From a virus: a stretch of 64,000 bases of DNA. The notes under the pieces are model-generated. The model worked only from the letters and a program-made list of their open reading frames with translations. It made no database searches and was not told the origin of the DNA. Made by a program: the position numbers and the translations under genes. Positions 44,274 through 45,607 of the stretch are shown here, one piece after another (the stretch's first letter is position 1; every line of letters begins with the position of its first letter). The DNA lies in IMG/VR virus record IMGVR_UViG_3300020469_000020, positions 41,192 to 105,191 of that record. The stretch is one strand, 5' to 3'.

Positions 44274-44610
44274 TTATACGTTTTTCAATAAGACCAGGTT
44301 TCTTTGAAGAAAGTTTTGTGAGATTATGATCATTCAATTTTTTCTGAAGGTCAATATTATAATTCTCTGCTTTCTGCAAAGACTTTTGAAGTTGTAATGT
44401 TTCTTTTTGTATTTTGGAATTTTGCTCACTTAAAACATTTACAGTAGTTTCTACATCTTTTAGACTGGATTTATACTTAGATGCTTCAGAAGTTTTAATT
44501 TCTAACTGATTTTTTAAATTTATGTAATGATTATATCCATAATATATACTTCCAGATACACTTAATAATAGTATTACTATTGTGTATAATTTGGTTAACA
44601 TATACTTCAA
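44209..44610 (-). CDS. Inner-membrane spanin (i-spanin)
   Basis: N-terminal TM, coiled coil, KPGLIEKRIN motif; GATAAATA at 44643-44650. Confidence 0.75.
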   Translation of the reverse strand: MKYMLTKLYTIVILLLSVSGSIYYGYNHYINLKNQLEIKTSEASKYKSSLKDVETTVNVLSEQNSKIQKETLQLQKSLQKAENYNIDLQKKLNDHNLTKLSSKKPGLIEKRINEATSKIFAELEEITSTDTTN

Positions 44611-44658
44611 TCTTTAATTTGAAATGATTTATCTTAATATTATATTTATCGTGTGCGG

Positions 44659-44858
44659 AATGTGGAAAAGAAAAAGAAAAGAAACTTAAACAAAAAACAA
44701 ACTTCAAAATACAAAAAACAGACAAGCACGGTGTTCAATATTCTCGGAGCAATGAACAAATTTTACTTTACCGAGGAGCAGTGAACAGTCAGGTTTAGAG
44801 TAGTTTTAAGGCCGCATTAGATGCGTGGAGTTTCTTAGTACATTCTCTTTTCCACTAC
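44659..44858 (-). ncRNA. Candidate structured non-coding RNA downstream of the coiled-coil gene
   Basis: Terminal stem GTGGAAAAGA/TCTTTTCCAC, internal hairpins, 13-nt direct repeat, five 7-nt U-rich repeats. Confidence 0.55.
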
Positions 44859-44865
44859 GAACAAA

Positions 44866-45444
44866 TTAGATCAAGTCTTCCTCCTGGAGGACCTTTTCCT
44901 CTTTGTCCGATAAACGAATAGTTGTTGAAACATTTAGTTCCAATAACTTATCGGTTATTTTTTGACGATGTTTTTTACATGTACGAATTTCTTTACGATA
45001 TTCTTCTACCTCTTCTTTTGAAATAAGAACAGTAGATACCGACATTCCTCTCAAATAGCGAGGAGAATCTTCTCCCTGTTTTTCAAGTTTTTCCATTCGA
45101 TTAATAATTTCTTCCGCAGTATATCTACGAACAGATTTACTATCATCTACCAGTTCGGATAACCAGTTAACGATATTTGTGACTTCACGTTCTTCAGTTA
45201 ATAATTTGGAAATACCAATTTCCATATTTTTATGTGCAACTTTTTCTCTCATAGAAAAAAGAACACTATTTAACACACGAAGACGTATTAAATTATTTTT
45301 CCATAATTCGGTGTTCTCCTTCATTTCTTCTACTACACGGTCTTTATCATCAAAAGATGATTGTACGTTAAGGTTAATGTCACGGATTATACCGTTGATT
45401 TCACTTTGAAGTGCGGCCGCTTTTCTTAAATTAACTTCTGTCAT
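44866..45444 (-). CDS. All-helical coiled-coil protein of unknown function
   Basis: 192 aa, AAGGAG RBS; N-terminus VNLRKAAALQ, C-terminus LLELNVSTTI.L. Confidence 0.8.
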   Translation of the reverse strand: MTEVNLRKAAALQSEINGIIRDINLNVQSSFDDKDRVVEEMKENTELWKNNLIRLRVLNSVLFSMREKVAHKNMEIGISKLLTEEREVTNIVNWLSELVDDSKSVRRYTAEEIINRMEKLEKQGEDSPRYLRGMSVSTVLISKEEVEEYRKEIRTCKKHRQKITDKLLELNVSTTIRLSDKEEKVLQEEDLI

Positions 45445-45466
45445 AATATACTCCTTAATTGCAAAT

Positions 45467-45553
45467 TGGTGCGGCAGGTCGGACTTGAACCGACAAGACT
45501 ATTAAGTCGACGGATTTTAAGTCCGTTGTGTTTACCATTTTCACCACAGCCGC
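45467..45553 (-). tRNA. tRNA-Leu (anticodon UAA)
   Basis: Cloverleaf: anticodon arm ACGGA-CTTAAAA-TCCGT, long variable arm, GTCGG-TTCAAGT-CCGAC T arm, encoded CCA. Confidence 0.95.
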
Positions 45554-45574
45554 TTTTTTATAATTTTACTATGA

Positions 45575-45607
45575 GATCAGTATAACACAACTGTTTTAAA
45601 ATGTCAA
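45575..45607 (-). promoter_or_regulatory. Sigma70-type promoter for the tRNA-Leu unit
   Basis: TTGACA-N17-TATACT with TG extension, followed by GATC. Confidence 0.8.

What the first reader, a model, noticed from the sequence alone, without database searches (positions are those of the whole stretch)
44659..45607. Candidate protein-RNA system: promoter, tRNA-Leu, coiled-coil gene, then a closed ~195-nt RNA with a 7-nt periodic tract
Seen: this densely packed genome leaves 255 bp without a credible gene after the 192-aa helical ORF. On the minus strand the gap is closed by a long-range stem. GTGGAAAAGA (44855-44846, 10 nt after the stop) pairs with TCTTTTCCAC (44671-44662), extendable by 3 bp with one G-U. 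Inside are a hairpin CGCAT-CTA-ATGCG (~44813-44825), a 13-nt direct repeat TGTTCA(C/T)TGCTCC (44775-44787, 44746-44758), and five in-register heptamers TTGTCTG TTTTTTG TATTTTG AAGTTTG TTTTTTG (44725-44691). One strong promoter (45579-45607) would co-transcribe tRNA, gene and element. A separate late promoter (44643-44650) serves the downstream spanins, so the element is not their leader. Inference: a discrete ncRNA whose periodic single-stranded tract is a repeated binding site for oligomers of the adjacent protein (an RNP or filament, or a type III TA-like pair). I recall similar helical genes (DIP1984/DUF6847-like) followed by such elements, but have not verified this.
Basis: partly seen in the sequence, partly recalled or inferred. 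Interest (0 to 1): 0.85.

Follow-up and report, generated by a model that had tools for sequence, protein, structure and literature searches.

The report
Phage heptad-repeat RNA with partner protein
The 'empty' 200 bases behind a small helical-protein gene in this marine T4-like phage encode a real, conserved folded RNA that displays six evenly spaced UG units. The same RNA-plus-protein pair sits in the tRNA gene clusters of very different phages, is in no catalogue, and its job is unknown.

Summary
Window 44662-44855 (minus strand) is a ~194-nt structured non-coding RNA. It has a 13-bp terminal stem (P1), two stacked inner stems (P3, P4) and an unpaired tract of six UG units at 7-nt spacing. 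All three helices covary across marine T4-like phages, Caulobacter/Brevundimonas phiCbK-like phages and dozens of IMG/VR jumbo-phage contigs. A core covariance model finds exactly one same-strand copy next to the homologous ~190-aa helical-protein gene in 62 of 69 loci. It finds one copy per genome in five 140-270 kb phage records. The RNA can lie before or after the protein gene, nearly always inside a tRNA gene cluster, so it is a gene of its own and not a UTR. Rfam has no match. The protein has no Pfam or NCBIfam family, its fold is nearest DIP1984 (3kdq), and it is predicted to form a homodimer. This scan has already noted sister modules on other DNA, with longer RNAs of 12-14 heptamers. 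This one is a compact six-unit form that their closest match, RAGATH-27, does not detect. Function is unknown. My best guess is a protein-RNA particle made from tRNA operon transcripts.

The parts
45579..45607 (-). sigma70-type promoter-like site upstream of the tRNA (TTGACA-17-TATACT, extended -10 TG)
   Evidence: 11 of 12 matches. This is a consensus match only.
45467..45553 (-). tRNA-Leu (anticodon UAA), the only tRNA of the window
   Evidence: ARAGORN; Rfam tRNA 59.5 bits
44866..45444 (-). gene of a 192-aa all-helical protein. It belongs to a large, almost purely viral family of ~185-195 aa with no Pfam or NCBIfam model.
   Evidence: no family; 932 cluster representatives at E<=1e-3; pLDDT 81, helices; nearest fold is 3kdq; homodimer predicted.
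44662..44855 (-). structured ncRNA, from the first to the last base of the closing stem P1 (~194 nt)
44843..44855 (-). P1 5' strand, purine-rich (GUGGAAAAGAGAA)
   Evidence: 13 pairs, 96.5% of cells paired, 8 pairs with changes on both sides
44662..44674 (-). P1 3' strand, pyrimidine-rich
   Evidence: G-U pairs at two positions fit this strand only.
44830..44836 (-). P1b 5' strand (AAGAAAC), pairs with 44679-44685
   Evidence: MFE fold. An equivalent helix (UAGACA/UGUCUA) is seen in relatives. Covariation was not counted.
44813..44825 (-). P2 hairpin CGCAU-CUA-AUGCG. This position is variable in relatives, which carry other hairpins here.
44782..44786 (-). P3 5' strand (GUUCA), pairs with 44733-44737 (UGAAC)
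   Evidence: helix 2: all 5 pairs have changes on both sides, 93.9% paired
44771..44775 (-). P4 5' strand (CUCGG), pairs with 44743-44747 (CCGAG). A UGCU motif precedes both strands.
   Evidence: helix 3: all 5 pairs have changes on both sides, 91.9% paired
44686..44728 (-). single-stranded tract of six UG units. The first interval is 8 nt, followed by five units at exactly 7 nt. The family consensus is U-G-Y-N-N-N-U.
   Evidence: (UG columns invariant in 20 and 11 sequences)
44691..44786 (-). conserved core (P3, P4, heptads) as matched by the core covariance model R2
   Evidence: 71.3 bits, E 1.7e-12. It is the only hit in the 64-kb window.
44643..44650 (-). GATAAATA, a T4-late-promoter-like box ahead of the spanin genes. 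It is not part of the RNA.
   Evidence: sequence; spanins by PHROGs; not tested

Best explanation
Window 44662-44855 (minus strand) is a gene for a stable, folded ~194-nt RNA that works together with the neighbouring 192-aa helical protein as a two-part module of phage tRNA operons. Shown: the RNA fold. A long purine/pyrimidine closing stem P1 encloses a P3-P4 stem pair and an unpaired tract of six UG units spaced 7 nt apart. Also shown: the near-obligate, single-copy, same-strand adjacency of RNA and protein genes in unrelated phage lineages, whatever their order. Inferred: both are made from the tRNA-operon transcript, here from the promoter at 45607-45579 through tRNA-Leu and the gene. The RNA would be cut out or protected by its closing stem. 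The six UG units would be the docking sites for six protomers (three dimers) of the helical protein, each reading U-G-Y at a fixed 7-nt pitch, giving a defined ribonucleoprotein particle. What the particle then does is not known. The context points to tRNA or translation, or, through an omega-subunit gene that often sits between the two genes in relatives, to the host RNA polymerase.
For: RNA reality:
- P1 has 13 pairs, 96.5% paired, with 8 pairs changed on both sides, on a MAFFT alignment that was not fitted to structure. Slid controls give 52-64%.
- All 10 pairs of P3 and P4 have changes on both sides. Overall 91% of cells are paired against about 40% when slid, and 0 of 500 shuffles reach this (that alignment is fitted to the model).
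- A model built from the five marine sequences alone finds the Caulobacter phage elements at their exact hand-set ends (E 0.007 and 0.03).
- G-U pairs fit the gene's strand only.

Coupling of RNA and protein:
- The core model R2 gives one same-strand hit beside the protein gene in 62 of 69 loci.
- It gives exactly one hit per record, inside the protein's locus, in five phage records of 140-270 kb.
- T4 and T5 lack both the protein and the RNA.
- The gene order flips between relatives and tRNAs flank both genes.

Heptad tract:
- The UG columns are invariant while the letters between them vary.
- 44 of 58 loci have 4 units, then a hairpin, then 2 units. Most of the rest have 5 or 6 contiguous units. 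Six is therefore the usual total.

Protein:
- A homodimer is predicted. Score 0.66, best of 3 controls 0.00. This mark was reached by 20 of 30 proteins solved as pairs of one chain and by 1 of 23 solved as single chains. The runs agree in at least 93% of contacts and the partner's pLDDT is at least 87.
- Basic positions are conserved in the family (R7, K8, R66 and the 157-160 cluster).

Transcription:
- No intrinsic terminator lies between the promoter and the RNA on the minus strand.
- A 185-nt contig from a marine metatranscriptome library, identical to the window, bridges the gene's end and the first 95 nt of the RNA (44771-44955).
- In relative L049 the RNA is followed at once by an 11-bp terminator and a 12/12 promoter.
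Against: No experiment or model shows the protein touching the RNA. The protein has no recognised RNA-binding domain, and the family is mildly acidic overall (median pI 6.0, median net charge -1.4), which is unusual for an RNA-coating protein. The dimer prediction says nothing about RNA and nothing about hexamers. In many relatives the two genes are separated by a tRNA, an omega-like gene or another non-coding element. Adjacency could therefore reflect a shared pathway rather than a complex. The metatranscriptome contig could come from contaminating DNA and does not define RNA ends. The reciprocal question, whether the RNA ever occurs without the protein, was tested only on seven whole phage records.
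Confidence: 0.45

Rival explanations
1. The RNA is a stand-alone stable RNA processed from the tRNA operon. It acts as a decoy or sponge for a host factor that reads evenly spaced U-G-rich single strands. Candidates are a hexameric or multi-domain RNA binder such as Hfq, Rho or ribosomal protein S1, or RNA polymerase. The helical protein would serve the same pathway without binding the tract.
For: The tract's six-unit count and fixed pitch fit a pre-existing multimeric host protein as well as they fit the phage protein. The phage protein is acidic to neutral and has no RNA-binding domain. An RNA polymerase omega-like gene is wedged between the RNA and the protein in 13 loci and lies nearby in 23, which hints at a host-machinery target.
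Against: The hosts range from marine bacteria to Caulobacter, and the units between the UGs vary freely. Yet the RNA never turned up apart from the phage protein in the records examined. That is easier to explain if the protein itself is the partner. No known host factor is known to me to read UGY at a 7-nt pitch.
Confidence: 0.3
2. The pair acts on tRNAs. It could be a maturation or protection device for the phage's own tRNA transcripts, or a decoy against host tRNA-cleaving defences, with the RNA as scaffold or mimic.
For: RNA and protein sit inside tRNA gene arrays on the tRNA strand in most loci, including tRNA-Leu directly upstream here. tRNA-Met often lies right beside the module. Fold relatives of the protein occur in tRNA-rich jumbo phages and giant viruses.
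Against: This is context only. The RNA has no tRNA-like domain (ARAGORN; Rfam). No nuclease, ligase or modification domain is found in the protein. The Caulobacter and Brevundimonas phage copies lie beside head genes rather than in a tRNA array.
Confidence: 0.15
3. The element is a cis-acting part of an mRNA: a 3' UTR stabiliser or terminator of the helical gene, or a leader of the downstream spanin genes.
For: Here it starts 10 nt after the stop codon and ends about 50 nt before the spanin gene. The metatranscriptome contig bridges the gene and the element.
Against: In many relatives the RNA lies upstream of the protein gene, or beyond a tRNA. The downstream genes differ between relatives. 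No terminator-like site lies within it.
Confidence: 0.04
4. It is a type III toxin-antitoxin-like pair, or a DNA-level element such as an origin or a packaging site.
For: For the TA reading: a protein gene lies next to a repeat-bearing RNA. For the DNA reading: a purine/pyrimidine-asymmetric inverted repeat is present.
Against: The RNA has 7-nt units, not about 36-nt tandem repeats, and often follows the protein. The protein is helical, not a ToxN-like fold, with only chance-level PADLOC matches. G-U pairs and one-strand-only model hits argue for RNA rather than DNA.
Confidence: 0.03

Closest known systems
Sister 'helical protein + heptad-repeat RNA' modules noted earlier in this scan on other phage DNA (notes e1-5780859, e1-5779131, e1-5747666 and others; unpublished AI notes)
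   Same: A small helical-protein gene sits next to a closed-stem ncRNA with a row of 7-nt units, inside phage tRNA clusters. Function is unknown.
   Different: Those RNAs are 310-460 nt with 12-14 units and are reported as knotted. This one is about 194 nt with six UG units. Their nearest catalogue entry (RAGATH-27) does not match here. My protein profile and RNA models find nothing in T5, which those notes cite. Homology between the two sets is not shown.
Periodic-triplet RNAs bound by ring proteins: the trp leader with TRAP (11 G/UAG repeats) and hut mRNA with hexameric HutP (UAG triplets 4 nt apart, i.e. a 7-nt period, in two sets). Recalled from memory.
   Same: Short conserved units at a fixed pitch on an unpaired strand, with free letters between them. 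There are six units, split 4+2 by a hairpin in most relatives, which resembles HutP's two sets.
   Different: The unit here is UGY, not NAG. The neighbouring protein is an all-helical dimer candidate with no HutP or TRAP domain. The RNA is a free-standing closed molecule, not an attenuator in a leader.
T4 stable RNAs species 1 (rnaC) and species 2 (rnaD) of the T4 tRNA cluster
   Same: Small stable RNAs of unknown function encoded among phage tRNA genes and made from the tRNA precursor (annotation).
   Different: Model R2 does not match them. They have no heptad tract or long closing stem (sequence). T4 has no homologue of the protein (not searched with A2 in T4; the R2 search was negative).
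DIP1984 protein of Corynebacterium diphtheriae (PDB 3kdq; 'septicolysin'-named family on Acinetobacter plasmids), function unknown
   Same: It is the only solved structure that aligns over most of the 192-aa model (Foldseek probability 0.99, E 0.087; VIA Z 9.8, 141 residues, rmsd 5.1).
   Different: There is no sequence-level match (NCBIfam and Pfam). The protein is about 40 residues longer. No RNA partner is known for DIP1984.
CsrB/RsmZ-type protein-sponge RNAs and type III antitoxin RNAs (ToxI)
   Same: An RNA displays repeated binding units for a dimeric or oligomeric protein.
   Different: Those units are GGA in hairpin loops, or 36-nt tandem repeats cut by the toxin. Here the units are six bare UGY heptads in one strand. 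There is no CsrA or ToxN homologue.

Membership tests
Any Rfam 15 family | covariance-model match at or near the gathering score | tested here: not met
   only tRNA matches. Nothing overlaps the element even at E up to 10.
RAGATH-27 (RF03100) | model score of at least 76.1 bits on the element | tested here: not met
   the best hit in the whole 105-kb record is 13.8 bits (E 2.1). It lies in the spanin gene (window 44306-44390), not in the element.
Type III toxin-antitoxin (ToxIN-like) | tandem ~36-nt RNA repeats upstream of a ToxN-fold endoribonuclease | tested here: not met
   only a period-7 array; no ToxN-type PADLOC match; the protein is all-helical.
DIP1984 family (NCBIfam) / septicolysin-like | match to the family HMM | tested here: not met
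   no NCBIfam family at E<=1; the A2 profile does not hit 3kdq by sequence.
DIP1984 family (fold level) | shared fold with PDB 3kdq | tested here: inconclusive
   this is the best full-length match (Z 9.8, 141 aligned, rmsd 5.1). For helical proteins, however, Z under about 13 may reflect only a common arrangement.
DUF6847 (PF20935) | match to the Pfam HMM | tested here: not met
   no match in the window protein or in 46 family members. The only lead is an ESM-Atlas neighbour cluster, cosine 0.92, in which 19% of members carry DUF6847.
T4 rnaC/rnaD stable RNAs | sequence or structure likeness to the T4 species 1 and 2 RNAs | tested here: not met
   R2 finds nothing in the T4 tRNA region; no heptad tract.
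HutP/TRAP-type periodic-triplet RNA-protein systems | (a) evenly spaced triplets on an unpaired RNA; (b) a HutP or TRAP family protein | tested here: not met
   (a) is met: six UGY units at a 7-nt pitch. (b) is not met: the protein has no such Pfam domain. This is a likeness of working principle only.
6S RNA, Y RNA, tmRNA, pRNA | Rfam model match, or the tRNA-like or central-bubble architecture | tested here: not met
   One sub-threshold YrlA hit in L038 overlaps tRNA genes, not the element.

The most novel reading that the evidence does not exclude
A widespread, so far undescribed ribonucleoprotein of large phages. A closed ~200-nt RNA presents exactly six UGY docking sites at a 7-nt pitch to three dimers of a dedicated helical protein. 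The RNP is made from tRNA operon transcripts and acts on the host's translation or transcription machinery, for example on tRNAs or, through the often co-encoded omega subunit, on RNA polymerase. The protein fold reaches as far as tRNA-rich giant viruses.
Probability: 0.3. Interest if true: 0.9.

Novelty: categorically new. Interest (0 to 1): 0.8.

Why it matters
Phage tRNA clusters are usually read as codon-usage or anti-defence cargo. This work shows that a strictly coupled RNA-protein pair rides in them across T4-like myoviruses, phiCbK-like siphoviruses and many uncultured jumbo phages. Neither partner is in Rfam, Pfam or NCBIfam, and I found no paper on it. The RNA has an unusually explicit design of six invariant UG units at a fixed pitch, which makes a binding model directly testable. 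A cultivable model exists: CcrColossus gp272 and the RNA behind it in Caulobacter crescentus. If it is an RNP, it would be a new class of viral RNA-protein machine. If it is a decoy, it would point to a host factor that many phages need to neutralise.

Tried and rejected
It was left out.
- The alignment A2 was too diverse for the search for related loci.
- The 18-nt 5' motif also hit three unrelated coding stretches (L006-L008). These are chance matches.
- tblastn of the window protein against GenBank phages found nothing. Only more central family members reach the Caulobacter and Brevundimonas phages.
- T5 and T4 were searched with the protein profile (T5 only), PF20935, RF03100 and R2. Nothing was found, so the T5 link in earlier notes could not be confirmed for this sub-family.
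- R2 missed the Kikimora and Gurke copies that are evident by eye. This is a limit of sensitivity.
- Two Arenicellales chromosomes carry the protein without an R2 hit. I did not follow this up.
- Laying metatranscriptome contigs gave only short pieces. Uncovered parts, including most of the heptad tract, say nothing. A 33-nt piece with 3 mismatches on the tract was disregarded.
- The MFE pairing of the heptad tract with the A-rich stretch upstream is not conserved, and the consensus fold leaves the tract unpaired.
- A possible alternative pairing through the 13-nt direct repeat is not conserved in the 52%-identity clade.
- Literature searches for DIP1984, DUF6847, RAGATH-27, heptamer RNAs in phage tRNA clusters and CcrColossus ncRNA found nothing relevant.

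Full report
SETTING. The window belongs to a 105-kb IMG/VR virus record. It is a T4-like phage of marine origin. gp32, the gp59 helicase loader, the gp33 late co-activator and an Rz/Rz1-type spanin pair lie just downstream of the finding. Homologues of the 192-aa protein come from marine metagenomes, including GOS and TARA. On the minus strand the order is as follows:
- a promoter-like site, 45607-45579 (11 of 12 matches with an extended -10);
- tRNA-Leu(UAA), 45553-45467;
- a 192-aa ORF, 45444-44866;
- a 255-bp stretch with no credible ORF;
- the spanin genes.

The gap folds well: -48.1 kcal/mol, z = -3.55, with no shuffle as stable. TRF reports a period-7 array at 44688-44720. Five in-register UG at 7-nt spacing occur once in the window against 0.14 expected. 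Taken alone that is weak. Comparison with relatives is what makes the case.

THE RNA IS CONSERVED AND COVARIES. Homologues at about 50% protein identity in nine viral and metagenome contigs all carry the same element right behind the stop codon. Its ends are far more conserved than the protein. Much more distant homologues (25-33% identity) exist in Caulobacter phages CcrColossus and CcrPW and in seven Brevundimonas phages. These are GC-rich siphoviruses of the Dolichocephalovirinae. In each, the gene is followed by an unannotated gap of 285-315 bp.

Those gaps hold the same plan in other letters:
- a closing stem: GUGGAAGCGG/CCGCUUCCAC, GUGGGAGCGAGG/CCCUCGCUCCCAC or GCGGGGACGGAAG/CUUCCGUCCCCGC, against GUGGAAAAGAGAA/UUCUUUUCCAC in the window;
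- an inner P3-P4 pair of stems;
- a row of UG units at 7-nt spacing.

The counts support this. On a plain MAFFT alignment of 11 sequences, P1 has 13 pairs. 96.5% of cells are paired and 8 pairs changed on both sides. When the partner is slid, 52-64% are paired. Two positions use G-U pairs, which fit the gene's strand only. A covariance model built from the five marine sequences alone (R1) finds the CcrColossus and CcrPW elements at exactly the ends I had set by eye (E 0.007 and 0.03). On the model-guided alignment of 31 hits, all ten pairs of P3 and P4 show changes on both sides. There, 91% of cells are paired against about 40% when slid, and no shuffle out of 500 reaches that value. That alignment is fitted to the structure, so it leans towards it. 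RNAalifold leaves the heptad tract unpaired.

THE HEPTAD TRACT. In the 20-sequence and 11-sequence alignments the UG columns are invariant while the letters between them vary. Over 59 loci the unit consensus is U-G-Y-N-N-N-U. Of 58 relatives, 44 have four units, then an inserted hairpin, then two more units. Most of the others have five or six contiguous units. In the window the first interval is 8 nt and five exact heptads follow (44728-44686). Six units is thus the usual total. The tract ends directly at the 3' strand of the P1b/P1 stems.

THE PROTEIN. The family is large: 932 cluster representatives at E<=1e-3, nearly all 185-195 aa. It is almost purely viral. There are 345 confirmed relatives in IMG/VR from one sub-family's patterns, but only 3 in 185,579 prokaryote genomes. 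The ESM-Atlas neighbours are 91-100% viral. It has no Pfam, PHROG, NCBIfam or meaningful PADLOC match. The AlphaFold model (pLDDT 81) is all-helical, with short N- and C-terminal strands that pair. The only solved structure that covers most of it is DIP1984 (3kdq). BFVD relatives are all uncharacterised. They include CcrColossus gp272, an Erwinia jumbo phage, a Vibrio phage and two giant viruses. A symmetric homodimer is predicted. The score is 0.66 and the best of 3 controls is 0.00. That mark was reached by 20 of 30 proteins solved as pairs of one chain and by 1 of 23 solved as single chains. The runs agree in at least 93% of contacts and the partner's pLDDT is at least 87. The family has conserved basic positions but is mildly acidic overall.

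RNA AND PROTEIN ARE A MODULE, NOT A GENE WITH A UTR. A core model (R2, 93 positions, trained without the marine sequences) gives one hit in each of 62 of 69 loci that hold the protein. Every hit is on the protein's strand and within about 600 nt of the gene. The window scores 71 bits, and that is its only hit. In five whole phage records of 140-270 kb there is exactly one hit each, inside the protein's locus. T4 and T5 have neither partner.

The order of the two genes is not fixed. In the marine and Caulobacter clades the RNA follows the protein. In many IMG/VR contigs it precedes the protein, or lies beyond an intervening tRNA-Met. Most loci are tRNA arrays, with tRNAs on the same strand on both sides. 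In relative L049 the RNA is followed at once by an intrinsic terminator and a perfect promoter. The downstream genes differ between relatives. This rules out a leader or 3'-UTR reading.

EXPRESSION. Short contigs from marine RNA libraries, identical to the window, lie on the gene, the tRNA and the promoter region. One of them bridges the gene's end and the first 95 nt of the RNA. This is compatible with co-transcription but is weak, because DNA carry-over cannot be excluded and contigs give no ends.

WHAT IT IS NOT. No Rfam family matches. RAGATH-27, named as the closest known by earlier notes of this scan on longer sister RNAs, scores 13.8 bits elsewhere in the genome. The T4 stable RNAs rnaC and rnaD share only the context. 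It is not a type III toxin-antitoxin system.

MECHANISM. Three things are shown: a folded RNA, a six-unit periodic single strand, strict genetic coupling to a dimer-prone helical protein, and residence in tRNA operons. One thing is inferred, with odds of about 0.45: the protein docks on the UG units, three dimers on six sites, to give a defined particle. This works in principle like TRAP or HutP on their triplet repeats, a likeness I recall from memory. The main rival, at about 0.3, is a decoy for a host factor, with the protein acting alongside. A tRNA-directed role (about 0.15) overlaps both. In relatives, an RNA polymerase omega-family gene is often wedged between the RNA and the protein. 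That is an untested pointer to transcription.

NOVELTY. I found no paper on it. A 2023 catalogue of about 8,500 candidate phage RNAs (PMC10690425) may contain pieces of it. I could not check that, and its text mentions no heptad RNA. This scan has flagged sister modules on other DNA before. The present one is a compact six-unit form in a T4-like phage, and it extends the range to the cultivable Caulobacter phages.

Noticed in passing
L066:977-1204 (+); also L060, L081, L095, L059, L104, L093, L082, L101, L039 and others: A 75-aa RNA polymerase omega-family ORF (Pfam Rpb6, E 1.8e-9) lies between the heptad RNA and the helical-protein gene and overlaps that gene's start. tblastn finds it in 23 of the fetched loci, and in 13 it ends at the helical gene's start. 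None is in the window.
   Followed up: partly
L026:1771-2120, L029:1771-2110, L037, L041, L036 (downstream of the protein gene): Where the heptad RNA is not directly behind the protein, that place is taken by another conserved ~225-nt non-coding stretch. It is followed by a ~130-nt tRNA-like element with a T-arm that ARAGORN does not call, and then by tRNA-Met. These may be further undescribed RNAs.
   Followed up: no
model m225f158136db against BFVD: Fold relatives of the 192-aa protein include proteins of the giant viruses Catovirus CTV1 and Yasminevirus (E 4e-5 and 6.5e-5, TM about 0.65), of Erwinia jumbo phage pEa_SNUABM_47 and of Vibrio phage Vp_R1. All are uncharacterised.
   Followed up: no
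window 44856-44865 (-); L002:3589-3598; L072, L067, L018, L019 just after the stop codon: A short U-U-G-rich motif (UUGUUCGUAG, UUGUCUGUAG, GUUUGGUAG, CUUGG) lies between the protein's stop codon and P1 wherever the order is protein then RNA. In GC-rich phages a hairpin without a U-tail is inserted there. It may be a processing site.
   Followed up: no
window 44839-44848 (-): The 5' strand of P1 holds a Shine-Dalgarno-like GAG/GGAG followed by AUG, one codon and UAA (AUG-UAC-UAA here, AUG-AAG-UAA in the 52% clade). This could be chance in a purine-rich stem.
   Followed up: no
L106, L107 (Arenicellales chromosomes CP179198, CP179197); L105 (Alteromonadales MAG contig): These are the only three prokaryote genomes among 185,579 with a homologue of the protein. 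The two Arenicellales copies have no tRNAs nearby and no R2 hit. They may be prophage remnants or a divergent form.
   Followed up: no
L049:2056-2117: In this relative the RNA is followed at once by an 11-bp intrinsic terminator and a 12/12 sigma70-type promoter. This marks the RNA as the last element of its transcription unit.
   Followed up: yes
L018:2690-2700 with 2796-2806 (CcrColossus, CcrPW): The first heptads (GUGGGUU) are complementary to AACCCAC upstream of P3, so a clade-specific extra helix is possible. It is not conserved in other clades.
   Followed up: no
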